From contig NZ_JBBPCO010000008.1 in NCBI RefSeq assembly GCF_038070005.1, positions 36,777-60,776 on the forward strand: a DNA stretch of 24,000 nt, in the 5' to 3' direction. The notes beneath the pieces were generated by a model. That model was not told the origin of the DNA. It ran no database searches and saw only the letters and a program-made list of their open reading frames with translations. This document shows, piece by piece, positions 584 to 24,000 of the stretch (positions within the stretch are counted from its first letter, which is position 1; each line of letters opens with the position of its first letter). Made by a program: the position numbers and the translations under genes. Origin of the DNA: Thermithiobacillus plumbiphilus (GTDB lineage Bacteria; Pseudomonadota; Gammaproteobacteria; Acidithiobacillales; Thermithiobacillaceae).

Positions 584-2095
584 ATGCTCAATACCCTTAT
601 CCGCCAGATCCTCACCAGCCGCGTCTATGACGTGGCGCGGGAAACGCCGCTTGAACCCGCCGCCAATCTCTCCCGCCGTCTCGGCAACCAGGTGCTCTTC
701 AAGCGCGAGGACCTGCAGCCGGTGTTCAGCTTCAAGCTGCGCGGTGCCTACAATCGCATCGCGCATCTGAGTGAGGCCGAGCGCGCCCGCGGCGTCATCG
801 CTGCGAGTGCCGGCAACCATGCCCAGGGCGTGGCCTTCTCCGCCCTGCGCCTTGGGCTGCGGGCCGTGATCGTGATGCCGCAGACCACCCCACAGATCAA
901 GGTGGATGCGGTGCGGGCTCTGGGTGCCGAGGTGGTGCTGGCGGGCGACAGCTATTCCGATGCCCAGGCGCATTGCGATCAGCTCGTGGCCGAAACCGGC
1001 ATGAGCTTCATCCATCCCTTTGACGATCCGCTGGTCATTGCTGGGCAGGGCACCATTGGTGACGAACTCCTGCGCCAGAGCAACGGCAAGCTCGATGCCG
1101 TGTTCGTGCCGGTCGGCGGGGGCGGGCTGATTGCCGGCATTGCGGGCTTTCTCAAGGTGCTCATGCCCGATGTGCGGGTGATCGGGGTCGAGCCCTTCGA
1201 GGCCGACGCCATGTACCAGTCCCTGCAGGCCGGGCAGCGGATCAGGCTCGATCAGGTGGGGATATTTGCCGATGGCGTGGCGGTGCGCGAGGTCGGCAAG
1301 CATACCTTCAAGATCGTGCGCGAGACCGTGGATGAGATCATCCGGGTCAGCAATGACGAGATCTGCGCCGCCATCAAGGACGTCTTTGACGACACCCGTG
1401 CCATCATGGAACCGGCCGGTGCGCTGGCGGTGGCCGGCCTGAAGGCCTATGCCGAGCGCCAGGGCGTCCAGGACCAGCGCCTGGTGGCCCTGCTCTCGGG
1501 CGCCAACATGAACTTCGACCGGCTGCGCTTCGTAGCGGAGCGGGCGGAACTCGGCGAGGCGCGCGAGGCCCTGCTCGCCGTCACCATCCCCGAGCGCCCC
1601 GGCGCCTTCCAGTCCTTCTGCGGCACCATCGGCAAGCGCGTCATCACCGAATTCAATTATCGCCTCAATGGCCGCGACAGCGCGCATATCTTTGTTGGCA
1701 TCAGCACCCGTTCGCGCGAGGACGCCCAGGGCCTGACCGAGTGCCTGAATGAAGCAGGTTATGCGACCACGGACCTGTCCGACAACGAAATGGCCAAGCT
1801 GCACGTCCGCCACATGGTCGGCGGGCACTCACCGGCGGTGCGCAATGAACTGATCTATCGCTTCGAATTTCCCGAGCGGCCCGGCGCACTGATGGAATTC
1901 CTGGAAAAGCTTGGCGGCCACTGGAACATCAGTCTGTTTCATTACCGCAATCACGGCGCGGACTTCGGCCGCATCCTCGCCGGCATCGAGGTGCCACCCG
2001 AGGACCTGCCGGCCTTCGAGCAGTTTCTGGCAAGGCTGGGCTATCCCCATGTGCGCGAGGATGACAATCCGGCCTATCGGTTTTTTCTGGGGTAA
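584..2095 (+). CDS. ilvA: biosynthetic threonine ammonia-lyase (threonine dehydratase)
   Basis: ATG 584 gives MLNTLIRQILTSRVYDVARETPLE. PLP-lysine motif FSFKLRGAYN, glycine loop PVGGGGLIAG, and two C-terminal ACT-like regulatory repeats. Length 503 aa is typical of IlvA. The 344-583 extension in the ORF track has no family similarity. Confidence 0.93.
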   Translation: MLNTLIRQILTSRVYDVARETPLEPAANLSRRLGNQVLFKREDLQPVFSFKLRGAYNRIAHLSEAERARGVIAASAGNHAQGVAFSALRLGLRAVIVMPQTTPQIKVDAVRALGAEVVLAGDSYSDAQAHCDQLVAETGMSFIHPFDDPLVIAGQGTIGDELLRQSNGKLDAVFVPVGGGGLIAGIAGFLKVLMPDVRVIGVEPFEADAMYQSLQAGQRIRLDQVGIFADGVAVREVGKHTFKIVRETVDEIIRVSNDEICAAIKDVFDDTRAIMEPAGALAVAGLKAYAERQGVQDQRLVALLSGANMNFDRLRFVAERAELGEAREALLAVTIPERPGAFQSFCGTIGKRVITEFNYRLNGRDSAHIFVGISTRSREDAQGLTECLNEAGYATTDLSDNEMAKLHVRHMVGGHSPAVRNELIYRFEFPERPGALMEFLEKLGGHWNISLFHYRNHGADFGRILAGIEVPPEDLPAFEQFLARLGYPHVREDDNPAYRFFLG

Positions 2096-2172
2096 GGTCA
2101 CTGCTGCCGCTCGTTTCGAAAGGAACTGAACAAGAACGGGAACTGGCCCTTTATTTTGCAGTGCGAATTATT

Positions 2173-2188
2173 GCTTCCTATAGGAAGC
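2173..2188. promoter_or_regulatory. perfect 16-bp palindrome GCTTCCTATAGGAAGC, candidate upstream activator sequence for the sigma-54 activator
   Basis: GCTTCCTA/TAGGAAGC is an exact inverted repeat centred about 145 bp upstream of the -24 element at 2325. This is the usual distance for EBP binding sites. Confidence 0.45.
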
Positions 2189-2324
2189 TACACATTCTCG
2201 CCAGCCTATGGCCCCGTGCCTTAGTTGTTCCAGCCTTTTGAGGTCGCATTCCCTGGGAAGCGCGCGATCTCATCCAACCCCCTTAAATAATCATATCCGA
2301 TTGTTTTTAAATGTAAAATTAAAA

Positions 2325-2338
2325 GGCACAGGTTTTGC
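2325..2338 (+). promoter_or_regulatory. sigma-54 (-24/-12) promoter
   Basis: aGGCACaggttTTGCt has the exact GG-N10-GC spacing and matches TGGCAC-N5-TTGCW at 10 of 11 consensus positions. It lies ~100 nt upstream of ATG 2442 in an AT-rich intergenic region. Confidence 0.7.
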
Positions 2339-2441
2339 TTCGAAGTTGTTGCGGACCTGTCGCCTGGTGACTATCAAATTGGGTCTTTTCTTAGCCGAGT
2401 GTCGGACATCCGCTTAACTCAATTTTAAATGGAGACGCAAG

Positions 2442-3098
2442 ATGACAACACTGAAGGACCAACTGAACGCGCGGACTGATTCCTACGACCATTGGGCCCT
2501 ACGGCGCCGCTATGGCCCCGAAGGCCACAATGACAGATCCCTCTGGGTGCTGGCCTGCATGGACGAGCGCCTGCCTGTGGACGAGGCTTTGGGGATTCGC
2601 GTGGACAGCCCAGCTGGTGGCGGCGACGCCCACTGCTTTCGCAATGCGGGCGGCATCGTCACCGACGACGCGATCCGCTCAGCCATGCTGACCTGCAACT
2701 TCTTCGGCACCAAGGAAATCGTCATCGTTCAGCATACCCAGTGCGGCATGCTGTCCGCCAATGCCAACGACCTAGAGCGGATGCTGAAGGAAAAGGGCGT
2801 AGACACGGAAAACCTGACTCTGGACCCGACTCTGCCCGAACTGAAGCTGGACAAGGGCGGGTTCGCCAAGTGGATCGGCATGATGGACGATGTGGATGTG
2901 ACATGCATGCGTACCATTGAGACGATCCGCAATCATCCCCTGATTCCCAAGCATGTCGTGGTCAGTGGCTGGATCTGGGAAGTGGAGAATCGTAGGCTGC
3001 GGGCGCCCACGTTGGATGCCAAAGTGCGAGGGCGTGTGCCTGATGTCCGTAGCACGGACTTCGGGGTGAGTCAGAATCAACCCCCACGGTGGGTCTGA
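2442..3098 (+). CDS. beta-carbonic-anhydrase-family enzyme, clade resembling CS2 hydrolase / COS hydrolase
   Basis: Zn-ligand and catalytic motifs CMDERL (Cys, Asp, Arg) and HTQCGM (His, Cys), plus RNAGGIVTDDAIRSA, NFFGTKEI and NHPLIP. GGAG RBS 8 nt upstream. The family call is solid; the substrate (CO2, COS or CS2) cannot be read from the sequence. Confidence 0.8.
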   Translation: MTTLKDQLNARTDSYDHWALRRRYGPEGHNDRSLWVLACMDERLPVDEALGIRVDSPAGGGDAHCFRNAGGIVTDDAIRSAMLTCNFFGTKEIVIVQHTQCGMLSANANDLERMLKEKGVDTENLTLDPTLPELKLDKGGFAKWIGMMDDVDVTCMRTIETIRNHPLIPKHVVVSGWIWEVENRRLRAPTLDAKVRGRVPDVRSTDFGVSQNQPPRWV

Positions 3099-3138
3099 TC
3101 GGCATTTAGGGCATGCTCGCAAGTTGTAAGAAGAAATA

Positions 3139-3165
3139 GAACGCACCGCCTAGAGCGGCGCGTTC
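3139..3165 (+). terminator. stem-loop downstream of the beta-CA-like gene (possible terminator/attenuator)
   Basis: GAACGCACCGC-ctaga-GCGGCGCGTTC forms an 11-bp stem with one mismatch. There is no clear U-tract, so read-through into fmdB is possible. Confidence 0.35.
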
Positions 3166-3193
3166 GGTCATAATTTAATCTGGGAATTCATTT

Positions 3194-3466
3194 ATGCCGA
3201 CCTATGATTATCGCTGTTGTGAGTGCGGGACACCGTTCGAAGCCAGCCACGCCATGAGCGAGCACGCGCCAGATTGTCCCAGCTGTGGTGGCGTGGCGGA
3301 GAAGGCCATTTTAGTAGCTCCGGCCATACATGGCCAAATGGCGCGGGGGCGTGAACTCGCAATGCGCTCGTTGCCGGCATTTAGGACGGAGGCCGGCCCA
3401 AATGGCCATAAGCCGGGCTGTAGTTGTTGCGCGCCCCGCGCGACGAGTACGGTCAAGACGAATTGA
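3194..3466 (+). CDS. FmdB-family zinc-ribbon putative regulatory protein
   Basis: N-terminus MPTYDYRCCECGTPFE...CPSCGG is the characteristic FmdB CxxC-N-CxxC zinc ribbon. The C-terminal tail carries an additional CSCC cluster. Confidence 0.8.
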   Translation: MPTYDYRCCECGTPFEASHAMSEHAPDCPSCGGVAEKAILVAPAIHGQMARGRELAMRSLPAFRTEAGPNGHKPGCSCCAPRATSTVKTN

Positions 3467-3601
3467 ATACGCCTATTGGGTTGTTTGTCCTGCACATCTA
3501 GCCTGCCGTGCTAGGATGAGAACATGGCTGTGGGCCCGCCGCGTACTTTGTGACATCGCAGCTCCGCAGTGCCTCCCTCATCTTTCTGAAGAGGATCGTC
3601 C

Positions 3602-5185
3602 ATGTCCCACGCATTGCTTTCCGAGCTGATCCCACTCTCGTTTTTGCAAATGTTCTTCACGCAGAGCGTCAAGCTTGCGGGACAACTGCCGCAAGAGGAC
3701 GCAGCCTGTCACAACCATATCCAGATTCTGGGGCTGACCGCCAGCAGCTGTCTGGAGGCCCATGTCCGCCAACAACTCGGCCTGTCTGGTGAAATCAGTG
3801 GCGATCAATACACTGCGTTGGTCATCAATATCAAGAACCAGATCGGCGGTGGCTTTGCGCCGGCTACGGGCGAGGCGGGAGCCATCCGCGTGATGAACAC
3901 CCGCTGCCCCTTCGGCGACCGGGTCAAGGAAGCGCCGGAGCTGTGCCGCATGACGTCGTCCGTGTTCGGTGGCATTGCCGCTCGTAATTTCGGTTACGCA
4001 AAGGTGGAGTTGCGTCGGCGCATTGCGAATAATGATGGTTGCTGCGAAGTGCTGATCCATTTTGACCGGGAGACGGCCCGGGACAAGTATGGCGACGAAT
4101 ACGTCAGCCAGGACGGTGCTATCGTGTCCCGCATGGCCTTGGAAGACGTGACCGTGCGGGTAGCGGAGAAAATGGCGCGGATCTGGTGTCCTGCGACCGG
4201 AAACGCGCCAGAAGGCTGCCGTGGCGGGCCGGAAATCGTGGCCGAATCCCTCGTTATGCGCGAAGCACTGGAAGCCGTCGAATTGGTGGCCCCAACCATG
4301 GCCAACGTCCTAATCAACGGCGAAACTGGCGTAGGCAAGGAAATCATCTCCCGCGCTATCCATGCGCTCAGCAAGCGTAGCGAGGGCAAGTTCGTTGCCG
4401 TCAACTGCGGGGCGATCCCGGATAACCTGATCGAGAGTGCCTTGTTCGGTCACGAGAAGGGGGCTTTCACTGGGGCGCATGAAATGCGCCAGGGCGTGTT
4501 CGAGCGGGCTGCGGGCGGTACGCTGTTTCTTGACGAGGTCGATAGCCTTCCGCTCTTGTCACAAGCTAATCTGTTGCGCGTGCTGCAGGAAGGCGAGTTC
4601 GAGCGAGTGGGCGGAAAACAAGTATTGCACGCAGACGTGCGCATCATTGCCGCCTCCAATACGCCAATGGACAAACTTCTAACTGGGGGAGGCTTCCGGC
4701 AGGACCTCTACTACCGGTTAAACGTCGTGCCCATCCATATTCCTCCCCTGCGGGAGCGAAGGGAGGATATTACCGCACTGATCAATCACTTGCTGTCGCG
4801 TCTAGCGGCGCGTTACCAGAGGCCCCGGAAAGTACTGGGCAGCCGGGCCTGGGGACAGGCTATGGCCTACGAGTGGCCTGGCAACGTGCGTGAACTGGAA
4901 AATGTGCTGGAGCGCACATTCCTTTTCGCCAGGGGACAGGTTATCGACGAGCTCGGCGTGCAACTCTCGGCCGAGACCGGCTTGTCGCAAATAGAGGATT
5001 TGCGCAGGCGTAGACAAGGCGCGGTTCGGGATGTCGAGACCAAGATTCTACGCGATGCCCTACAACGTCAAGCCGGCAACGTAAGCGCAGTAGCCCGTGA
5101 GATAGGCATCACGCCCCGGGCAATTCATCAGAAGTTGCGAAGTTACAATATCGACGCCGCGACTTATCGAAAACCAGGCAAATAA
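3602..5185 (+). CDS. sigma-54-dependent Fis-family transcriptional activator (bacterial enhancer-binding protein) with Cys-rich N-terminal sensor
   Basis: AAA+ core with Walker [24 protein letters not shown] (GAFTGA loop) and Walker B TLFLDEV. C-terminal Fis-type [22 protein letters not shown]. The ~215-aa N-terminal domain contains CPFG...LC...CCEV. GAGGA RBS. Confidence 0.9.
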
Positions 5186-5234
5186 GCTGGGCATGTGTGC
5201 CGGGCTGGCGCCGACATTATCCCGATTTGAGTAG

Positions 5235-5483
5235 CGCCTCAATGGCCGCGACAGCGCGCATATCTTTGTTGGCATCAGCACCCGCTCGCGCGAGGATGCC
5301 CAGGGCCGAGTGCCTGAATGCGGCCGGTTATGCGGCCACAGACCTGTCCGATAACGAAATGGCCAAGCTGCACGTCCGCCACATGGTCGGCGGGCACTCA
5401 CCGGCGGTGCGCAATGAACTGATCTATCGCTTCGAATTTCCCGAGCAGCCGGGGGAGCTGATGGAATTCCTGGAGAAACTCGA
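5235..5483 (+). pseudogene. duplicated, diverged and frameshifted fragment of the ilvA 3' region
   Basis: Aligns base-for-base with 1661-1913 of the intact ilvA: roughly 16 substitutions plus a 5-nt deletion (tgacc), including a ~90-bp identical stretch. It lacks the remaining 180 bp of ilvA. Confidence 0.85.
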
Positions 5484-5649
5484 GGTGTCGTCTTCCACCC
5501 TCAGCCGGGTTCTGAACGGATTCAGTCGTGTCACGCCTGAAATGCCGCCGCGGCTCGCCAAGGCGCTGGGCCGCTCGCCCGAGAGCTGGCTTGCCATGCA
5601 GGATGCCCATGATCTTTGGATGGCCCGACAACGGGTAAACTTGAACTAA
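5484..5649 (+). pseudogene. N-terminally truncated HigA-family (XRE HTH) antitoxin remnant, fused in frame to the ilvA fragment
   Basis: [42 protein letters not shown] matches helices 3-5 of HigA antidote proteins. The first ~25-30 residues of the family and any partner toxin are missing. Confidence 0.65.
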
Positions 5650-5803: not shown

Positions 5804-6073
5804 ATGCAAACGAAATTTTCAGAGGATGTCATTCCCCTGTCCGGTCTCAAGATCAACCCGGGCAAAGTCGTAAGCCAGGTGAACGATACACACAGGCCAG
5901 TCCTGCTGACCAGCAGAGGCAGAGGGGTTGCTGTCGTCCAGAGTCTCGACGATTACGAAAAGACTGCCGAAGAGCTGCGGTTCATCAAGGCTGTGGCCCA
6001 GGGACTGGCGGACATCCGGGAAGGAAACACCGCCACACTGGCCGAGGCGAAGAAAATACTTGGCGCAGAGTAA
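5804..6073 (+). CDS. Phd/YefM-family type II antitoxin
   Basis: PVLLTSRGRGVAVVQSLDDYEKTAEEL is the typical Phd/YefM core. The stop codon abuts the start of the downstream toxin gene. Confidence 0.85.
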   Translation: MQTKFSEDVIPLSGLKINPGKVVSQVNDTHRPVLLTSRGRGVAVVQSLDDYEKTAEELRFIKAVAQGLADIREGNTATLAEAKKILGAE

Positions 6074-6373
6074 GTGGAAATCATCATCGCTCGCTCTGCC
6101 CTGAGTGATCTCCAGGAGATTAAAGCGTACTACCTGGAGCAGGATGTCCCGGACATTGGCCAAAAGTTTGTAAATGCCATATTGGAAAATGTGCAACGGC
6201 TACGTGATCACCCTGATTCAGGTAGAAAGGTCCCCGAGTTTGATCAGGAGCGCATCCGGGAAATTATCCATCCGCCGTTTCGTGTGATTTACCTGCGGGA
6301 TGTGGCCTCTGTGAATCTGGTTCGGGTCTGGAGAAGCGAGCGGTTGCTATTGCTTCCCGATGAAGAAACATGA
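6074..6373 (+). CDS. RelE/ParE-family type II toxin
   Basis: GTG start directly after the antitoxin stop. 99 aa with the ParE-like pattern (LQEIKAYY...HPDSGRKVPE...REIIHPPFRVIYL...VNLVRVW). Confidence 0.8.
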   Translation: MEIIIARSALSDLQEIKAYYLEQDVPDIGQKFVNAILENVQRLRDHPDSGRKVPEFDQERIREIIHPPFRVIYLRDVASVNLVRVWRSERLLLLPDEET

Positions 6374-6416
6374 CAGCTCGCCCCAGCCGCTTAATCAGAC
6401 CTAAGGCGCTGCACCA

Positions 6417-6920
6417 ATGATCATCGCCGAGCGTGATGCTTCAGCATTCATCCGCGGGTACACCCTGATAATGGGTGAGATCTATGGTGCACCGCCCGCC
6501 AAGCACAAAATTCTGGAGGTGCTGACCGTTGCCCGGGAGAAATATATGGCTGACCGTTCGTTGCTTGACAGAGCGCTGAGCGGATTGACTGCAGAATCAG
6601 TGCCGGTGCCCGGCGAAGTCGTCTCCGCCATACGTGGCCTCGAAGTGGCGAAATGGATTTACCTCAAGGACACGCGGTCGCATTCCGTCTTCATCCATCC
6701 GTCGGGCCAGGTCGCCTATGGTGTGCTCGGCCTGACTGAGCGAGTCAGAAGTATCATTGGCGGTTCCGGCGCCATCATTGAGACTGGCGTCGTTCGCTAT
6801 CGCGGGCGATATGTGACGGACGGCGTTGTGTCACGAGTCGCATGGCTTGGCCCAAACTACAAGAGGGAATTTTCGGGTGTTCTGTCCCACCTTCGCAGTC
6901 AAGGGTTGTTCAATGTGTGA
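6417..6920 (+). CDS. hypothetical protein (167 aa, no recognisable domain)
   Basis: Longest ORF in this interval with protein-like composition. In-frame TAA at 6402-6404 fixes the maximal start. Only a weak RBS and no recognisable motif. Confidence 0.45.
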   Translation: MIIAERDASAFIRGYTLIMGEIYGAPPAKHKILEVLTVAREKYMADRSLLDRALSGLTAESVPVPGEVVSAIRGLEVAKWIYLKDTRSHSVFIHPSGQVAYGVLGLTERVRSIIGGSGAIIETGVVRYRGRYVTDGVVSRVAWLGPNYKREFSGVLSHLRSQGLFNV

Positions 6921-7027
6921 TATGCGCCCTGACTTCCCGGTCAATCGGGCTACCCGCGAGCCGCGATTGTGGAATCCTTCCGCCCTTCGGATTCCGGTGG
7001 CCGATCACTTTGAACGTCAGGTGTCAC

Positions 7028-7375
7028 ATGGCATTCACGGAGCTTGAACTTCAGCGGTGCAAGAAAGTGCTCGCACAATTCCTCGAACGTCGCCGCCCGC
7101 CAGCGCACATTCGCGACCGATTGGACATCGATTACCGTATCACTGGTCAGAGCGTCGAAATCTTCGAGATCCGACCCGATTGGCAGGACAAGTCGAGAAA
7201 GCGGGAAACGCTTGTTGCCAAGGCCACGTTCGTGCGCATACAGAATCGATGGAAAGTCTTCTGGATGCGCAAGGATCTCAAGTGGCATGGGTACGAGCCC
7301 AACCCTGAAATGCATTCGCTCGAAGCCTTTCTCGACGTGGTCGGTCGCGATGAATATTGTTGCTTCTTCGGCTGA
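7028..7375 (+). CDS. DUF3024-like protein
   Basis: From ATG 7028: MAFTELELQRCKKVLAQFLERRRPP...VEIFEIRP...NRWKVFWMRKDLKWHGYEP, which resembles the DUF3024 family pattern from memory. The upstream part of ORF 6842-7375 overlaps the preceding gene and looks non-coding. Confidence 0.65.
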   Translation: MAFTELELQRCKKVLAQFLERRRPPAHIRDRLDIDYRITGQSVEIFEIRPDWQDKSRKRETLVAKATFVRIQNRWKVFWMRKDLKWHGYEPNPEMHSLEAFLDVVGRDEYCCFFG

Positions 7376-7450
7376 GAAGGTCGCGTCTAAGCTCCATCTA
7401 AGAGACGGGCGCTTGCAGGGTAATTTGGCAGAATCCGGAGTGATTCAGTT

Positions 7451-7687
7451 ATGAAATATACCCAGTACTTTCAGGCCATGCGGCAAAGACCCGATCGGGC
7501 TAGTATCGATTTGCACTGGATCGAGCGGGTCGTGCATCAGCCGATACGGGAAGTGATTCAGCAGGATGGCCGCATTCGGCGCTGGGGAGCAGTGCCGGAA
7601 GCAGGGGGCAGGTATTAACGTGTTATTTTGCTGCCTGACGGCGAAACGGTTCATAATGCCTTTTTCGATCGAGGGTTCATGCCATGA
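7451..7687 (+). pseudogene. small toxin-like gene (family usually paired with DUF2283; DUF4258-like) interrupted by an in-frame TAA
   Basis: ATG 7451 reads MKYTQYFQAMRQRPDRASIDLHWIERVV...GGRY, then TAA at 7616-7618. The same frame continues RVILLPDGETVHNAFFDRGFMP and ends at TGA 7685-7687, which overlaps ATG 7684 of the next gene (ATGA). Confidence 0.6.
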
Positions 7688-7881
7688 AGATCCAGTATTT
7701 CCAGGAAACGGATACGCTCTATATCGAGTTTCGCACCACTGAAGTGGCCGAGACCAAGGATCTGGATGAAAACACGCTGCTGGATCTCGACAAGGCAGGT
7801 CACATCTGCGGCATCACCATCGAGCATGCCAGCGAGCGAGCAGATATTCCTCACTTCTCTTTTGAACAAGTGGCGGCCTGA
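7684..7881 (+). CDS. DUF2283-domain protein
   Basis: MKIQYFQETDTLYIEF...DENTLLDLDKAGHICGITIEHAS is the characteristic DUF2283 pattern. Confidence 0.8.
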   Translation: MKIQYFQETDTLYIEFRTTEVAETKDLDENTLLDLDKAGHICGITIEHASERADIPHFSFEQVAA

Positions 7882-21524: not shown

Positions 21525-22318
21525 CGGGCCTCCCAGGTGGCGCATAGGCGCTTGGCGTTGGGGTATAGGGCTGGCTGGATAGGGTGGCCTGCCGGGTAAC
21601 GCTCTGCTGGTGGCGTGGTGCGTTGATCCTCCTGCATGGCACAAGTGCCGATGCCGCCATGCTCGCCGGCTTGGTAGTGCTGGCAGGTGGCGCAGGTGAC
21701 GTACTCGGTCGCTGGTGGCGTGGTCGGTGCCTCAGCCTCGCTGACCGGGTGCATGGTCGATGCCGGGAACGTCCGCTTGAGCGCCAGCCAATCCCGCGCC
21801 GCCTGCCTGTTGCCTGGTGGGATCAGTCGCAGTTCTCCGGTGGTGAAGAGTGGATAGGCTGCCCAGGCCTCGGGAATTGTCGCCGTGGTACTCGCCCAGA
21901 CCATGTAACCATCATCCACCCGCACCAGCAGCGCCAATCCGCTGGATTCGATGGCAGACAGACGCATGGCTGCCGCGTCTTCGGGTGTCGTTACAGGGAC
22001 GGGTGCGGGTACAGGGTCATTGCTATTCCCGCTACTTTCGCTACTCGGGTGCTCAGGAGTAGCAGGAATAGCAGCCGCAACAGGCGCAACTTTTGCGGGT
22101 GTTTTTTCGGGGTCGAGTTGCGCCTTGTTTTGGCCTGAGTTGCAGGCCGGTTGCGCCTTCGGTTGCGCTTTGTTTCCCTGCAAAGCCAGACGGGCCAAGG
22201 CTTTGAGGCTGGCGGTTGCGCTTTGGGTTGCGGCCACGGTTGCGCCGCTCTGGTGAAAAGTTGCGGGTTGCGTCTCTATAGGGTGTGCAACGCGCAACTT
22301 TTGTGGATCAGTCTGCAT
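21521..22318 (-). CDS. hypothetical protein with low-complexity Ala/Pro/Gln N-terminal half and Cys-rich C-terminal domain
   Basis: ATG 22318 (MQTDPQKL). KAQPKAQP-type repeats. C-terminal CATCQHY...GIGTCA...RLCATWE is a four-Cys putative zinc-binding module. The alternative start at 22462 would overlap the upstream gene by 155 nt. Confidence 0.55.
   Translation of the reverse strand: MQTDPQKLRVAHPIETQPATFHQSGATVAATQSATASLKALARLALQGNKAQPKAQPACNSGQNKAQLDPEKTPAKVAPVAAAIPATPEHPSSESSGNSNDPVPAPVPVTTPEDAAAMRLSAIESSGLALLVRVDDGYMVWASTTATIPEAWAAYPLFTTGELRLIPPGNRQAARDWLALKRTFPASTMHPVSEAEAPTTPPATEYVTCATCQHYQAGEHGGIGTCAMQEDQRTTPPAERYPAGHPIQPALYPNAKRLCATWEAR
22076..22298. repeat. cluster of GTTGCG/CGCAAC hexamer repeats (iteron-like) inside the 21521-22318 CDS
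   Basis: Eight exact GTTGCG (22117, 22150, 22162, 22215, 22227, 22239, 22260, 22267) plus one GTTGCA, and three exact inverted CGCAAC (22076, 22085, 22293). Several are spaced 12 bp apart. Confidence 0.6.
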
Positions 22319-23393
22319 CCTCGGCCTCCTCGCTCCAGTCGCGGGCTGGCTTGTTACGCTTGGCAGATGCGGGTTTGTTGGATTCCCGATAGCGCCCCTC
22401 CGTAATAGCGCGCTTGCGATGACGTGAAACGCGGGACTTGTGTATGCCCAACTCGGTGGCAATTTCTATTTGACTCAGGCCCTCTTCGAGCAACTGAATG
22501 ACCCGCTCATAAGTGCTGTCTTCCACGCTCCGTACGCTCCAGGGATTGCCACTGGCATCCGGTGTTCCCATGCGGGCTTCGAAGGGCGCCACGGCATCCC
22601 CCATCACGCCGCGTGCCTTCTCGAAATGCACCTCGAAAACAGCGCCCTCTTCCGGGCTGTACTGGCTAGGGCGCCGCAAGTTGATAACCGTATCCAGCAC
22701 GTCTTCACGGCGGCTGGTGCCCCGTTGCTGGCCGCCCTTGCCGGCATGGTGAATGAACAGGATGCTCTTGCCGCGTGCCCGCCATTTCAGTGCCCATTCC
22801 TGGATGGATAGCCAGGATTCCCCTTCGTTCTCTTTGCCGGTGCGGGCCAGGGTGGACAGGTTGTCCACCACGATCAGGGCAATCTCATCGGTGATGTGCT
22901 CATCCACCATGATCTGACCTAAAGGGCTGCTCAAATCGGGAGTTCGCCCATGCTCCTGCTCATCGGGGGTAATGATCCGAAATGGCGCCGTGGCCTCTTT
23001 CTCGCTCGCCAGGACGATGCCTGCCAGGCGTTCCTTGATGGTCACGGCGGGCATTTCCCCATCCACGAACAGCACGCCGCGCGGTCTTGGTGCCTGCCAC
23101 TTCAGGAAGCTGCCGCCGCTGGCCACTGCATAGGCAATGCCAAGGGAAAGGTGGGTTTTGCCGATGCCGCGCTGAGCAAAGATCATGGCCAGGCCTTGCG
23201 TAGGAATGACCGGCTCCATGACCCACTCACGCGGGGGATATTCCTTGGATAAGAGTTCATCCAGGCCCACGGCACGGACACGGGGCAGGGATTCGCGTTC
23301 CTCATTGCCTGCCAGTTCAACGCCGCCCAATGTCTCGGCCACTTCCTCGGGGCTGGCCAGCTCGGTATAGATCTGCTCGCTTAGGCTGCTCAT
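22308..23393 (-). CDS. RepA-like/RecA-fold AAA ATPase (putative replicative helicase) with C-terminal HTH
   Basis: Walker A FAQRGIGKTHLSL, Walker B ALIVVDNLSTL, FIHHAGKGGQQRG. C-terminal GLSQIEIATELGIHKSRVSRHRK HTH. ATG 23393 overlaps the upstream stop (ATGA). Confidence 0.78.
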   Translation of the reverse strand: MSSLSEQIYTELASPEEVAETLGGVELAGNEERESLPRVRAVGLDELLSKEYPPREWVMEPVIPTQGLAMIFAQRGIGKTHLSLGIAYAVASGGSFLKWQAPRPRGVLFVDGEMPAVTIKERLAGIVLASEKEATAPFRIITPDEQEHGRTPDLSSPLGQIMVDEHITDEIALIVVDNLSTLARTGKENEGESWLSIQEWALKWRARGKSILFIHHAGKGGQQRGTSRREDVLDTVINLRRPSQYSPEEGAVFEVHFEKARGVMGDAVAPFEARMGTPDASGNPWSVRSVEDSTYERVIQLLEEGLSQIEIATELGIHKSRVSRHRKRAITEGRYRESNKPASAKRNKPARDWSEEAEDAD

Positions 23394-24000
23394 GCCGCGC
23401 CCTCCATCGTCAGCACGTCCGCCCAATCGCAGGTCTTTGGAATGGCTCCATTGATGGCCGCCAGGCGCGCCAGGTGGTCTTTGGATGGCATCAGGATATG
23501 GACGCTTCGCCCTTGTGCCCGCAGCCGCTCCCGGAGCGTTCTTGCGGCTTCTTCGCCCGCCGCACTCCGGTCCAGGTCGGTGCCGATGATGATCTCTCGC
23601 GCATGGGGTGGCAGGATCACGGATGCCAGTCCCGGTGCCGACACGCAGGCCCAGGCCGGCCAGCCGGTGAACTGGTGCAGCGCCAGCGCGGTTTCGATGC
23701 CCTCGGCCAGGATCAGCCGCCCATTCTGAACAGGAAACAGGCGAATCGCCGCGCCACGGGTAGCGCCCTCGGCAATGGCCGGCATCAGCTTCTTGGGCTC
23801 GGGTACTGGTGCCTTGGCGCCGTCGGCAATCAGATAGGTACGGTGAATGCTCACCAGCCCCCCGTCCGGTCCCTGTACCGCTGCCAGCATAGCCGGGTGA
23901 AAGGTCTTGCTGTCGTCGGCATGGCGATAACTCAGGGCCGGTGCATGACGCAGCACAACGGGGAAAGTGGGCAGCCTCAGACCACGTGCATGCAGATAGC
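23390..24000 (-). CDS. toprim-domain primase-like protein (N-terminus outside window)
   Basis: The frame stays open to the window edge (..YLHARGLRLPTFPVVLRHAP..). Toprim motifs ILAEGIETALA (Glu) and IIIGTDLDRSAAGEEAA (DxD). Typical of P4-alpha/TraC-like primases of integrative elements. Confidence 0.75.
   Translation of the reverse strand, partial: YLHARGLRLPTFPVVLRHAPALSYRHADDSKTFHPAMLAAVQGPDGGLVSIHRTYLIADGAKAPVPEPKKLMPAIAEGATRGAAIRLFPVQNGRLILAEGIETALALHQFTGWPAWACVSAPGLASVILPPHAREIIIGTDLDRSAAGEEAARTLRERLRAQGRSVHILMPSKDHLARLAAINGAIPKTCDWADVLTMEGAA

What the first reader, a model, noticed from the sequence alone, without database searches (positions are those of the whole stretch)
2096..5234. 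Sigma-54/EBP-controlled CS2/COS-hydrolase-like beta-carbonic-anhydrase cassette inserted just downstream of ilvA
Seen in the sequence: a 218-aa beta-CA-family protein with CMDERL and HTQCGM zinc/catalytic motifs, plus RNAGGIVTDDAIRSA, NFFGTKEI and NHPLIP. As I recall them, these motifs are closer to the CS2 hydrolases of Acidianus and Acidithiobacillus thiooxidans and the COS hydrolase of Thiobacillus thioparus than to ordinary CO2-hydrating enzymes. In the CS2 hydrolases, the paired Phe of NFFG lines the narrow hydrophobic substrate tunnel. The gene has an exact-spacing -24/-12 promoter and is followed by an FmdB zinc-ribbon gene and a sigma-54 activator with a dedicated sensor domain. To my knowledge, a dedicated sensor/activator circuit for this enzyme clade has not been described. 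It would imply inducible use of a volatile sulfur compound, or another small triatomic substrate. The AT-rich promoter region and the flanking ilvA scar point to horizontal acquisition.
Basis: partly seen in the sequence, partly recalled or inferred. Interest (0 to 1): 0.72.

Follow-up and report, generated by a model that had tools for sequence, protein, structure and literature searches.

The report
Inducible CS2/COS-hydrolase-like gene cassette
A mobile three-gene unit (a zinc enzyme closest to carbon-disulfide hydrolases, a small zinc-ribbon protein and its own sigma-54 activator with a ligand-sensing domain) sits behind ilvA here and recurs in hundreds of sulfur-oxidising, methane-oxidising and nitrifying species, yet I found no paper describing it as a regulated system.

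Summary

**Enzyme.** The 218-aa protein is a beta-carbonic-anhydrase-family enzyme. Its best solved relative by a wide margin is the Acidianus CS2 hydrolase (E 4e-47, 48% identity). Ordinary clade-D enzymes score about 1e-20. The T. thioparus COS hydrolase scores 3e-17, so it is not a close relative.

**Conserved module.** The enzyme, an FmdB-type zinc-ribbon protein and a MetOD1-AAA+-HTH sigma-54 activator recur together. Relatives were found in 342 reference species. In the 80 loci read, FmdB was detected in 70 and the activator in 68.
- A sigma-54 promoter lies within 200 nt upstream in 67 of 69 loci that have the activator. The background rate is 5%.
- It is absent where the activator is absent.
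- A GAAG-N5-CTTC palindrome upstream is a candidate activator site.

**Sensor.** The sensor domain models as a V4R/H-NOX/Bet3-like fold.

**Mobility.** The unit is a discrete 3.1-kb block in changing genomic contexts. On a Methylobacter plasmid it is flanked by IS elements.

**Limits.** The substrate (CS2/COS) and the inducer are inferred, not shown. No paper describing this circuit was found.

The parts
584..2095 (+). Intact ilvA (threonine ammonia-lyase), 503 aa from the MLNTL start. This is the resident gene immediately upstream of the cassette and is not part of it.
   Evidence: ORF; start position. The duplicated fragment matches NCBIfam IlvA models.
2165..2196 (.). Candidate activator-binding region (UAS). 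It holds two degenerate GAAG-N5-CTTC sites, at 2165-2177 (1 mismatch) and 2184-2196 (2 mismatches), starting 19 nt apart. They overlap a perfect 16-bp palindrome, GCTTCCTATAGGAAGC, at 2173-2188.
   Evidence: Across the family, the exact motif occurs in 38 of 69 loci against 1.8% of background windows. With up to 1 mismatch it occurs in 62 of 69 against 11.8%. The block is conserved in Thiobacillus copies. Binding has not been tested.
2280..2323 (.). AT-rich spacer between the UAS and the promoter. It may be a DNA-bending (IHF-type) region.
   Evidence: Composition. The conserved TATCC..TTGTTTTT block appears in Thiobacillus copies. An IHF role is inferred from the usual sigma-54 promoter architecture.
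2324..2339 (+). Sigma-54 -24/-12 promoter element AGGCACAGGTTTTGCT, starting 118 nt upstream of the enzyme's start codon.
   Evidence: A match of at least 9 of 11 positions lies within 200 nt upstream in 67 of 69 loci with the activator, against 5.4% of background windows.
2442..3098 (+). CS2-hydrolase-like beta-carbonic-anhydrase-family enzyme, 218 aa. Predicted Zn ligands are C39, H98 and C101, with a D41/R43 dyad. The Phe-Phe motif is F87/F88. An RBS (GGAGA) lies at 2431-2435.
   Evidence: Pfam Pro_CA. 3TEN E 4e-47; 48% identity. Shared clade features are shown.
3139..3165 (+). Stem-loop between the enzyme gene and fmdB (about 10 pairs in the + strand RNA fold). It may be an attenuating terminator or an mRNA-stabilising hairpin.
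   Evidence: The same intergenic position folds into a strong hairpin in most loci, with different sequences (median z -2.7; 42 of 70 have z below -2). The window's own intergenic region is weak on this measure (z -1.1). The function is inferred.
3194..3466 (+). FmdB-family zinc-ribbon protein, 90 aa. It has an N-terminal CxxC...CxxC ribbon, a conserved PAxHGxMARGR segment and a His/Cys tail (H..PGCxC).
   Evidence: Pfam and NCBIfam. Alignment of 68 distinct orthologues. Detected in 70 of the 80 related loci by tblastn.
3602..4216 (+). Sensor domain of the activator (residues 1-205). It is MetOD1 with a V4R/H-NOX/Bet3-like fold and has invariant C102, C115 and C148.
   Evidence: Pfam MetOD1. 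Alignment. Model pLDDT 83.4. Foldseek matches to Bet3/TRAPP, H-NOX and DmpR. PMC5847659.
4235..4738 (+). AAA+ sigma-54 interaction domain of the activator, with Walker A GETGVGKE and the GAFTGA loop.
   Evidence: Pfam Sigma54_activat, E 1e-66, residues 212-379. The motifs were read in the translation.
5024..5146 (+). Fis-type HTH DNA-binding domain of the activator. The gene ends at 5185.
   Evidence: Pfam HTH_8, residues 475-515.
5231..5478 (+). Internal ilvA pseudogene fragment, 92% identical to 1657-1907 and frameshifted by a 5-bp deletion. It marks the right-hand junction of the cassette.
   Evidence: NCBIfam IlvA models match the chimeric ORF at 5197-5649.

Best explanation
Window 2116-5212 is a self-contained, horizontally mobile regulon.

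**Proposed mechanism.**
- A one-component sigma-54 activator is built like XylR/DmpR, with a V4R/H-NOX-like MetOD1 sensor, an AAA+ domain and a Fis-type HTH.
- It binds GAAG-N5-CTTC-type sites about 140-160 nt upstream of a -24/-12 promoter.
- On sensing a small hydrophobic effector, it drives transcription of a zinc enzyme of the CS2-hydrolase-like branch of beta-carbonic anhydrases, together with an FmdB zinc-ribbon partner.
- The most likely reaction is hydrolysis of CS2 and/or COS to H2S and CO2.
- In sulfur oxidisers such as this Thiobacillus, this would feed sulfide into energy metabolism. In nitrifiers and methanotrophs, it would remove a compound I recall as an inhibitor of their copper monooxygenases.
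- FmdB is most likely a metal-binding accessory of the enzyme rather than a regulator.

**Shown here:** the gene content, family assignments, co-occurrence, promoter conservation, the upstream motif, the sensor fold class and the module's mobility.

**Inferred:** the substrate, the inducer, DNA binding and the role of FmdB.
For: **Enzyme.**
- The best solved relative is the Acidianus CS2 hydrolase: 163.6 bits, E 4e-47, against at most 76 bits for any other CA, with 48% identity.
- It shares the clade's Phe-Phe motif, the roughly 20-aa LDPxLPxL insertion and the N- and C-terminal extensions that canonical clade-D CAs lack.
- The Phe-Phe motif is used in the literature as the CS2-hydrolase signature (PMC6382920).
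- Characterised CS2 hydrolases have no CA activity (PMC12035519).

**Module.**
- FmdB is detected in 70 and the activator's sensor domain in 68 of the 80 related loci. No other neighbour is conserved.
- The sister lineage P0357 has the same trio. More distant CS2H-like clades lack it.

**Regulation.**
- The sigma-54 promoter is present in 67 of 69 loci with the activator, against 5.4% background. It is absent in 7 of 9 loci without the activator; the other 2 are on contigs that end right after the enzyme gene.
- The palindrome is enriched: 55% of loci against 1.8% background for the exact motif. It often occurs as two copies 20 nt apart.

**Sensor.**
- The model has pLDDT 83 and matches Bet3, H-NOX and the DmpR-phenol complex.
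- MetOD1 is related to V4R and HNOB and shares three conserved Cys with V4R (PMC5847659).

**Mobility.**

**Metal link.**
- ZIP or NicO transporters lie beside or inside the module in about 10% of loci.
- Actinobacterial homologues carry a fused YHS metal-binding domain and, on the one plasmid examined, have no FmdB neighbour.
Against: - No member of this 217-aa subclade has been assayed, as far as I could find.
- It is only 43-48% identical to the Acidianus enzyme. It lies in a different subclade of a superclade that also includes cyanobacterial, planctomycete and other proteins of unknown activity.
- No sulfur-oxidation genes are consistently linked.
- The tunnel and oligomer could not be evaluated. 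The AF2 model of the enzyme was poor (pLDDT 56) and only a monomer was modelled.
- The window's own UAS copies are degenerate.
- The three invariant Cys of the sensor could equally serve product (sulfide/persulfide) sensing.
Confidence: 0.55

Rival explanations
1. The enzyme is an ordinary carbonic anhydrase. It interconverts CO2 and bicarbonate and is switched on by the activator under a particular carbon or pH condition in these largely autotrophic or C1-using hosts.
For: It has the Pfam Pro_CA fold and a complete Zn site with the Asp-Arg dyad. Every public annotation I saw calls it a carbonic anhydrase. Many hosts are autotrophs.
Against: It groups with the CS2-hydrolase-like superclade, not with canonical clade-D CAs. 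The characterised members of that superclade lack CA activity. A V4R-like sensor for hydrophobic ligands is an odd choice for sensing bicarbonate.
Confidence: 0.13
2. The enzyme hydrolyses a different small linear heterocumulene, such as isothiocyanate/thiocyanic acid, cyanate or cyanamide/carbodiimide. The activator senses that compound.
For: The subclade has features that the Acidianus enzyme lacks: a 6-aa VDSPAGGG insertion, HTQC in place of HTDC, and a conserved FGV..QPxRW tail. Hosts include the thiocyanate degrader Thiohalobacter thiocyanaticus and nitrogen-cycle bacteria.
Against: No nitrile, cyanate or thiocyanate genes are linked. I know of no precedent for such chemistry in this beta-CA branch.
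Confidence: 0.12
3. The enzyme is as in the best explanation, but the activator senses the product (sulfide or sulfane sulfur) through its three invariant cysteines, as the sigma-54 activator FisR responds to sulfide. It would not sense CS2 or COS directly.
For: C102, C115 and C148 are invariant in MetOD1 domains. FisR is a precedent for a sulfide-responsive sigma-54 activator (PMC7315123).
Against: The same three Cys are shared with the V4R domain of the phenol sensors PoxR and MopR. From my own recollection, those Cys hold a structural zinc there. Product sensing would also not explain why the target is a hydrolase rather than sulfide-oxidising genes.
Confidence: 0.2

Closest known systems
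Carbon disulfide hydrolase of Acidianus sp. A1-3 (PDB 3TEN/3TEO; UniProt CS2H_ACIS1) and its Sulfolobales relatives
   Same: Same beta-CA fold family. It has the same Cys-His-Cys zinc site and Asp-Arg dyad, the Phe-Phe (NFFG) motif, the LDPxLPxL insertion and the N- and C-terminal extensions. Identity is 48%, and it is the best hit in the PDB by about 90 bits.
   Different: It belongs to a separate subclade (Sulfolobales 199/200 bootstraps; window clade 200/200). The window clade has a 6-aa insertion, HTQC, and its own conserved C-terminal tail. It is bacterial and neutrophilic. It comes with a zinc-ribbon partner and a sigma-54 activator, which I did not find beside more distant bacterial CS2H-like genes.
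Carbonyl sulfide hydrolase (COSase) of Thiobacillus thioparus THI115 (PDB 3VQJ)
   Same: It is a clade-D beta-CA-family enzyme from the same genus that hydrolyses COS to H2S and CO2.
   Different: It is only a distant relative (E 3e-17, aligned over residues 31-114 only). That is no closer than Rv1284 or other ordinary clade-D CAs.
XylR/DmpR/MopR/PoxR-type sigma-54 activators (V4R sensor + AAA+ + HTH)
   Same: It has the same three-part architecture and no receiver domain. The sensor is of the V4R/H-NOX/Bet3 fold class with three conserved Cys. It has a -24/-12 promoter with upstream palindromes.
   Different: The sensor is the MetOD1 family, not XylR_N/V4R. The structural match to DmpR is weak (E 0.046, TM 0.45). 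The target is a single hydrolase gene rather than an aromatic catabolic pathway.
FisR, the sulfide-responsive sigma-54 activator of sqr/pdo operons (Cupriavidus, Acinetobacter)
   Same: It is a sigma-54 activator tied to reduced-sulfur stress, often divergently transcribed from its target (PMC7315123).
   Different: Its targets are sulfide-oxidising enzymes. I could not compare its N-terminal domain here.
FmdB of the Methylophilus formamidase cluster (TIGR02605 family)
   Same: It has the same N-terminal CxxC...CxxC zinc ribbon.
   Different: The window subfamily has its own conserved PAxHGxMARGR segment and His/Cys tail. The original 'regulatory' label for FmdB is, as I recall, not experimentally grounded.

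Membership tests
Beta-carbonic anhydrase superfamily (Pfam PF00484), Cab-type/clade D | Pro_CA profile match above the gathering threshold | tested here: met
   36.2 bits against a cut-off of 25.7, covering residues 36-181.
Beta-carbonic anhydrase superfamily (Pfam PF00484), Cab-type/clade D | Cys-His-Cys zinc ligands and the Asp-Arg dyad (CxDxR ... HxxC) | tested here: met
   C39-M-D41-E-R43 and H98-T-Q-C101 align with C35/D37/R39 and H88/C91 of 3TEN. They are invariant in the family alignment.
CS2 hydrolase (EC 3.13.1.5), Acidianus/Acidithiobacillus type | Closer in sequence to characterised CS2 hydrolases than to CO2-hydrating beta-CAs | tested here: met
   3TEN scores 163.6 bits, against at most 76 bits for any other solved CA. 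The CS2H-like group splits from canonical representatives in 200 of 200 bootstraps. The Acidithiobacillus enzymes could not be placed because no sequence was available.
CS2 hydrolase (EC 3.13.1.5), Acidianus/Acidithiobacillus type | The characteristic Phe-Phe motif (F77/F78 in 3TEN) | tested here: met
   NFFG at residues 86-89; F87/F88 are invariant in the clade. PMC6382920 cites the motif as characteristic.
CS2 hydrolase (EC 3.13.1.5), Acidianus/Acidithiobacillus type | N- and C-terminal extensions that build the octameric ring or catenane and close the usual entrance, leaving a long hydrophobic tunnel | tested here: inconclusive
   Extensions and the clade-specific insertion are present and align with 3TEN residues 10-186. 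The monomer model was poor (pLDDT 56), and neither oligomer nor tunnel could be modelled.
CS2 hydrolase (EC 3.13.1.5), Acidianus/Acidithiobacillus type | Hydrolyses CS2 (and COS) to H2S without CO2 hydration activity | not testable with these tools
   This requires an enzyme assay.
COS hydrolase (EC 3.13.1.7), T. thioparus type | Close sequence relationship to 3VQJ | tested here: not met
   E 3e-17 over residues 31-114 only, no better than ordinary clade-D CAs.
Bacterial enhancer-binding protein (sigma-54 activator) | AAA+ Sigma54_activat domain with the GAFTGA loop, plus a C-terminal HTH | tested here: met
   PF00158 E 1e-66; HTH_8 E 4.5e-11. GAFTGA and GETGVGKE were read in the translation.
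Bacterial enhancer-binding protein (sigma-54 activator) | A cognate -24/-12 promoter at the target gene | tested here: met
   Element at 2324-2339. It is conserved in 67 of 69 loci against 5.4% background and co-varies with the activator.
Bacterial enhancer-binding protein (sigma-54 activator) | RpoN- and activator-dependent transcription | not testable with these tools
   This requires genetics or in vitro transcription.
V4R/H-NOX/Bet3-like ligand-binding fold (MetOD1, PF18546) | Profile match and fold similarity | tested here: met
   PF18546 scores 45.9 bits against a cut-off of 23.8. Foldseek probability is about 1.0 to Bet3/TRAPPC3, H-NOX and DmpR, but with modest scores (E 1e-3 to 5e-2; TM 0.45-0.6). 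The literature agrees.
FmdB family zinc ribbon (TIGR02605) | CxxC...CxxC ribbon above the family cut-off | tested here: met
   TIGR02605 scores 49.8 bits against 31.3; PF09723 scores 47.9 bits against 34.4.

The most novel reading that the evidence does not exclude
The MetOD1 activator may be the first dedicated bacterial sensor of CS2 and/or COS. On this reading, the cassette is a widespread, mobile defence and utilisation system. It lets sulfur oxidisers harvest these gases. It also protects ammonia- and methane-oxidisers from CS2, which I recall (Hyman et al. 1990, not checked here) as an inhibitor of ammonia monooxygenase. This would tie volatile-sulfur turnover to nitrification and methane oxidation.
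Probability: 0.3. Interest if true: 0.8.

Novelty: new variant of a known kind. Interest (0 to 1): 0.62.

Why it matters
COS is the most abundant atmospheric sulfur gas, and soil microbes are a major sink (PMC12035519). CS2 hydrolases have so far been treated as rarities of acidophiles.

If this subclade is active on CS2 or COS, it would place an inducible hydrolase in several abundant guilds. Relatives were found in 342 reference species, including Thiobacillus, Sulfuricella, Chromatiaceae, Methylobacter/Methylomonas and Nitrosomonas/Nitrosospira. That would be relevant to COS budgets.

**Nitrification inhibitors.** As I recall, some nitrification inhibitors act by releasing CS2. An inducible hydrolase in nitrifiers could affect how they behave.

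**Biosensor.** The activator would also be a ready-made biosensor part for volatile sulfur compounds.

**Annotation.** Every public annotation I saw calls the enzyme simply 'carbonic anhydrase'. The regulatory link is therefore invisible to annotation-based surveys.

Tried and rejected
1. **AlphaFold2 model of the enzyme** from a 10-sequence alignment. Mean pLDDT was 55.9. That is too poor for fold search or tunnel analysis, so I did not use it.
2. **Smeulders et al. 2013** (PMC3754733), wanted for tunnel residues and the Acidithiobacillus sequences, is not held. The Acidithiobacillus enzymes could therefore not be placed in the tree.
3. **Exact-sequence look-ups** of IlvA and the activator found nothing. 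I could not find an 'empty' ilvA site in a sister strain.
4. **Search for conserved sulfur-oxidation, cyanate or carboxysome neighbours.** ORF clustering found nothing shared by more than 6 loci. A Pfam census of 137 downstream neighbours was heterogeneous. The DUF442-FAD oxidoreductase fusion beside the cassette occurs in only a few Nitrosomonas loci.
5. **Terminal inverted repeats or an integrase** within or at the ends of the cassette: none found.
6. **AT-rich promoter as a sign of foreign DNA:** rejected, because the AT-rich block is conserved in the five Thiobacillus-group copies aligned.
7. **Literature searches** for a regulator or FmdB link to CS2/COS hydrolases returned nothing relevant.


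Full report
**1. What is in the sequence**

The three ORFs exist as described:
- 2442-3098: a 218-aa protein.
- 3194-3466: a 90-aa protein.
- 3602-5185: a 527-aa protein.

All lie on the + strand, directly after ilvA, which stops at 2095.

Pfam and NCBIfam assign them as follows:
- The first is Pro_CA, at 36 bits. It is a divergent beta-carbonic anhydrase.
- The second is the FmdB/Zn_ribbon_8 family.
- The third is a sigma-54 activator. It has an N-terminal MetOD1 domain (residues 68-153), an AAA+ domain (212-379; the GAFTGA loop is present) and a Fis-type HTH (475-515). It has no receiver domain.

The quoted motifs CMDERL, RNAGGIVTDDAIRSA, NFFGTKEI, HTQCGM and NHPLIP are all present.

The element AGGCACAGGTTTTGCT at 2324-2339 has the correct GG-N10-GC spacing. 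It is the only such match in the window. Taken alone it is not significant, because 1.38 matches are expected by chance.

**2. The enzyme**

Against all PDB sequences, the best match is the Acidianus CS2 hydrolase 3TEN (E 4e-47, 163.6 bits). The next matches are ordinary clade-D enzymes at 76 bits or less. The T. thioparus COS hydrolase 3VQJ scores only E 3e-17 over the N-terminal half. Identity to 3TEN is 48%.

An alignment with representatives shows that the window protein shares four features with the Acidianus enzyme and about 2,000 other proteins:
- an N-terminal helix, W(A/V)LRR..G..N;
- the NFFG Phe-Phe motif (F77/F78 in 3TEN, F87/F88 here);
- an insertion of about 20 residues, LDPxLPxL;
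- a C-terminal extension, RLRxP....

Canonical clade-D CAs lack all four. The Phe-Phe motif is cited as characteristic of CS2 hydrolases (PMC6382920). Characterised CS2 hydrolases show no CA activity (PMC12035519).

In a neighbour-joining tree with 200 bootstraps:
- Seventeen canonical representatives split from the CS2H-like group in 200 of 200 replicates.
- The window protein's own clade is monophyletic in 200 of 200.
- Its sister is the P0357 lineage, in 152 of 200.
- The Sulfolobales enzymes form a different subclade, in 199 of 200.

The window clade has its own signatures: a VDSPAGGG insertion, HTQC, and a conserved FGV..QPxRW tail. It is also unusually conserved, at 75-82% identity between beta- and gammaproteobacterial hosts. 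In a library clustered at 50% identity, only 28 clusters score below E 1e-30 before scores fall to the canonical-CA range.

Membership of the CS2-hydrolase-like branch is established by sequence. The activity, tunnel and oligomer are not established; my AF2 model had pLDDT 56 and I did not use it.

**3. The three genes form a conserved module**

A scan of one genome per species found relatives in 342 species. I read the best 80 loci. Hosts include:
- Sulfur oxidisers: Thiobacillus (95-96% identical, so the window is Thiobacillus-like), Sulfuricella, Sulfuriferula, Thiocapsa and other Chromatiaceae, Thiohalobacter and Thiohalomonas.
- Methanotrophs: Methylobacter, Methylomonas and Methylomicrobium.
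- Nitrifiers: Nitrosomonas, Nitrosospira and Nitrospirota.
- Some Alphaproteobacteria.

By tblastn, FmdB follows the enzyme gene in 70 of the 80 loci. An activator with the same sensor domain is adjacent in 68. The activator lies either downstream on the same strand, as here, or upstream and divergent, as in the Nitrosomonas type.

Clustering all ORFs, with the window as an 81st locus, shows that these are the only conserved genes: 81, 71 and 67 loci for the three. No other real gene family is shared by more than 6 loci. A Pfam census of 137 downstream neighbours is heterogeneous.

The sister lineage P0357 has the same trio next to plasmid partition genes. Two more distant CS2H-like lineages have neither FmdB nor the activator.

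**4. Regulation**

A match of at least 9 of 11 positions to TGGCAC-N5-TTGCW lies within 200 nt upstream of the enzyme gene in 67 of 69 loci that have the activator. Only 5.4% of random 200-nt windows from the same loci have one.
- Of 9 loci without a detectable activator, 7 lack the promoter.
- The other 2 are on contigs that end right after the enzyme gene.

This co-variation is the strongest computational evidence that the promoter and the activator work together.

Upstream of the -24 element, at 75-160 nt, a GAAG-N5-CTTC palindrome occurs:
- exactly, in 38 of 69 loci, against 1.8% of background windows;
- with up to one mismatch, in 62 of 69, against 11.8%.

Several loci carry two copies 20 nt apart.

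The window's own copies are degenerate: 2165-2177 has 1 mismatch and 2184-2196 has 2. They overlap a perfect palindrome, GCTTCCTATAGGAAGC, at 2173-2188, which is conserved in the Thiobacillus group. The AT-rich stretch between these sites and the promoter is also conserved in that group. It is therefore part of the promoter architecture, not a mark of foreign DNA.

**5. The sensor**

With a 31-sequence alignment, the first 208 residues model at pLDDT 83.4. Foldseek places the model with Bet3/TRAPPC3, H-NOX and the DmpR-phenol complex. Probabilities are about 1.0, but the scores are modest (E 1e-3 to 5e-2; TM 0.45-0.6).

Galperin and colleagues, who defined MetOD1, reached the same conclusion from sequence. 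They describe it as related to HNOB and V4R, and as sharing three conserved cysteines with the phenol-sensing V4R domains of PoxR and MopR (PMC5847659). Those cysteines are C102, C115 and C148 here, and they are invariant.

The same domain occurs alone in Bacillaceae and fused to anti-sigma-type kinases in Actinobacteria.

The architecture is therefore that of a one-component, effector-binding activator of the XylR/DmpR kind. Direct binding of a small hydrophobic molecule is a reasonable inference. Sensing of sulfide or persulfide through the cysteines, with FisR as the precedent (PMC7315123), is the main alternative.

**6. FmdB**

Sixty-eight distinct orthologues share four features:
- the N-terminal CxxC...CxxC ribbon;
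- a PAxHGxMARGR segment;
- an RSL motif;
- a His/Cys tail, H..PGCxC.

Three observations point to a metal-related accessory role rather than a regulatory one:
- ZIP or NicO metal transporters lie next to the module in 8 of the 80 loci and in the P0357 loci. In a Methylobacter plasmid and in Methylomonas L020, the transporter lies between fmdB and the activator gene.
- Actinobacterial members of the same enzyme clade carry a C-terminal YHS metal-binding domain. On the Mycobacterium plasmid examined, they have no FmdB neighbour.
- The enzyme is a zinc enzyme.

This role is an inference.

A hairpin between the enzyme gene and fmdB (window 3139-3165) is conserved in position but not in sequence. 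It may set the ratio of enzyme to FmdB. The window's own intergenic region folds weakly on this measure (z -1.1).

**7. Mobility and the ilvA scar**

DNA similarity between the window and the Thiobacillus copies covers only 2116-5212. The flanks are unrelated. The right end of the homology falls a few bases after the activator's stop codon.

At 5231-5478 lies a 252-bp internal piece of ilvA. It is 92% identical to the resident gene, carries a 5-bp deletion, and is fused to the 3' part of a higA antitoxin gene. Toxin-antitoxin genes follow, and G+C stays low to about 7900.

Eight metagenome contigs carry the identical enzyme. Those that extend upstream show the same junction with ilvA.

On Methylobacter sp. 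YRD-M1 plasmid NZ_CP091425, the module is flanked by IS3 and IS1 transposases.

The cassette has no integrase or terminal repeats of its own. How it moves is unknown. Recombination within larger mobile regions is the simplest reading.

**8. Function**

The best-supported reading is an inducible CS2 and/or COS hydrolase regulon. I put about 0.85 on 'sigma-54/activator-controlled CS2H-like enzyme module' and about 0.55 on the full statement including the substrate.

The host range fits:
- Sulfur oxidisers can use the H2S produced.
- For ammonia- and methane-oxidisers, I recall CS2 as an inhibitor of ammonia monooxygenase (Hyman et al. 1990, from memory). Held papers mention CS2 only as a possible toxic agent for nitrifiers (PMC6091914). 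A protective role there is a hypothesis.

Against this reading, there is no consistent linkage to sulfur-oxidation genes, and no member of this subclade has been assayed.

**9. Novelty**

Putative CS2-hydrolase homologues in neutrophilic sulfur bacteria have been noted before (PMC6382920). Clade-D diversity has also been surveyed (PMC13098186).

I found no paper linking this enzyme branch to a sigma-54 activator, to MetOD1 or to FmdB. Every public annotation I saw says only 'carbonic anhydrase', 'zinc ribbon domain-containing protein' and 'sigma 54-interacting transcriptional regulator'.

I rate it a new variant of known kinds: a known enzyme branch and a known activator class joined in a previously undescribed, widespread and mobile circuit.

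Noticed in passing
window 5197-5649: A chimeric ORF. The frameshifted internal ilvA fragment (5231-5478) is fused in frame to the C-terminal part of a HigA-family antitoxin (TIGR02607, profile positions 25-81). This suggests a second rearrangement at the right edge of the cassette.
   Followed up: partly
window 5804-7881: A run of accessory genes in a low-G+C stretch (52-59% to about 7900, against 62-68% in the flanks). It contains a Phd/YefM-ParE toxin-antitoxin pair (5804-6373), a 167-aa ORF with no Pfam match (6417-6920), a DUF3024 protein (6842-7375) and two small ORFs (7451-7618, 7684-7881). No integrase was seen.
   Followed up: partly
window 3139-3165; the same intergenic position in L009-L088: A strong hairpin between the enzyme gene and fmdB. 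It is conserved in position in most loci, but its sequences are unrelated (median z -2.7; 42 of 70 with z below -2). The window's own intergenic region is weak (z -1.1). It could be a leaky terminator or an mRNA-stability element.
   Followed up: partly
L101 (Methylobacter sp. YRD-M1 plasmid NZ_CP091425) 5068-12378: The gene order is IS3 transposase, carbonic anhydrase, zinc ribbon, ZIP metal transporter, sigma-54 regulator, cupin, IS1 transposase. This is a composite-transposon-like copy of the module with a metal importer inside it. An IscB gene and trfA lie nearby.
   Followed up: partly
L102 (Mycobacterium paragordonae plasmid NZ_CP025547) 7001-7843; P0361: Actinobacterial members of the same enzyme clade are 67-70% identical and have the same QPxRW tail. 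They carry a fused C-terminal YHS metal-binding domain. On the plasmid examined, there is no FmdB or activator beside the gene.
   Followed up: partly
L019, L026, L045 (Nitrospirota) and L062, L064, L070, L074: In these loci the enzyme gene has no detectable activator and also no -24/-12 element within 200 nt. FmdB is also absent in L019, L026, L045, L062 and L070, but is present in L064 and L074. The enzyme is evidently used under other regulation in some lineages.
   Followed up: partly
L078 3057-4745; L079 9255-10943 (Nitrosomonas): A 562-aa fusion of a DUF442/BLH-phosphatase-like domain with an FAD-dependent pyridine-nucleotide-disulfide oxidoreductase lies directly after fmdB. This architecture is, as I recall, seen in sulfide-detoxification clusters. 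It occurs in only about 4 of 80 loci.
   Followed up: partly
L097-L100 (P0264 lineage): A more distant CS2H-like gene sits next to peroxiredoxin, rubrerythrin and a Pyr_redox_2-rhodanese fusion (a CoA-disulfide/persulfide-reductase-like protein). This is a different, redox or sulfur-flavoured context without the activator.
   Followed up: no
proteins P0186-P0240: The MetOD1 domain also occurs as a stand-alone protein of about 200 aa in Bacillaceae. In Actinobacteria it is fused to HATPase-type anti-sigma-factor kinases, and some of these carry ArsR-family annotations. It is therefore a broadly used bacterial input module, despite its 'methanogen output domain' name.
   Followed up: no
window 22308-23426 (- strand): A 372-aa AAA_25 ATPase with a C-terminal HTH, a type common in integrative or mobile elements. 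This hints at a second mobile region at the right end of the window. I did not examine it.
   Followed up: no
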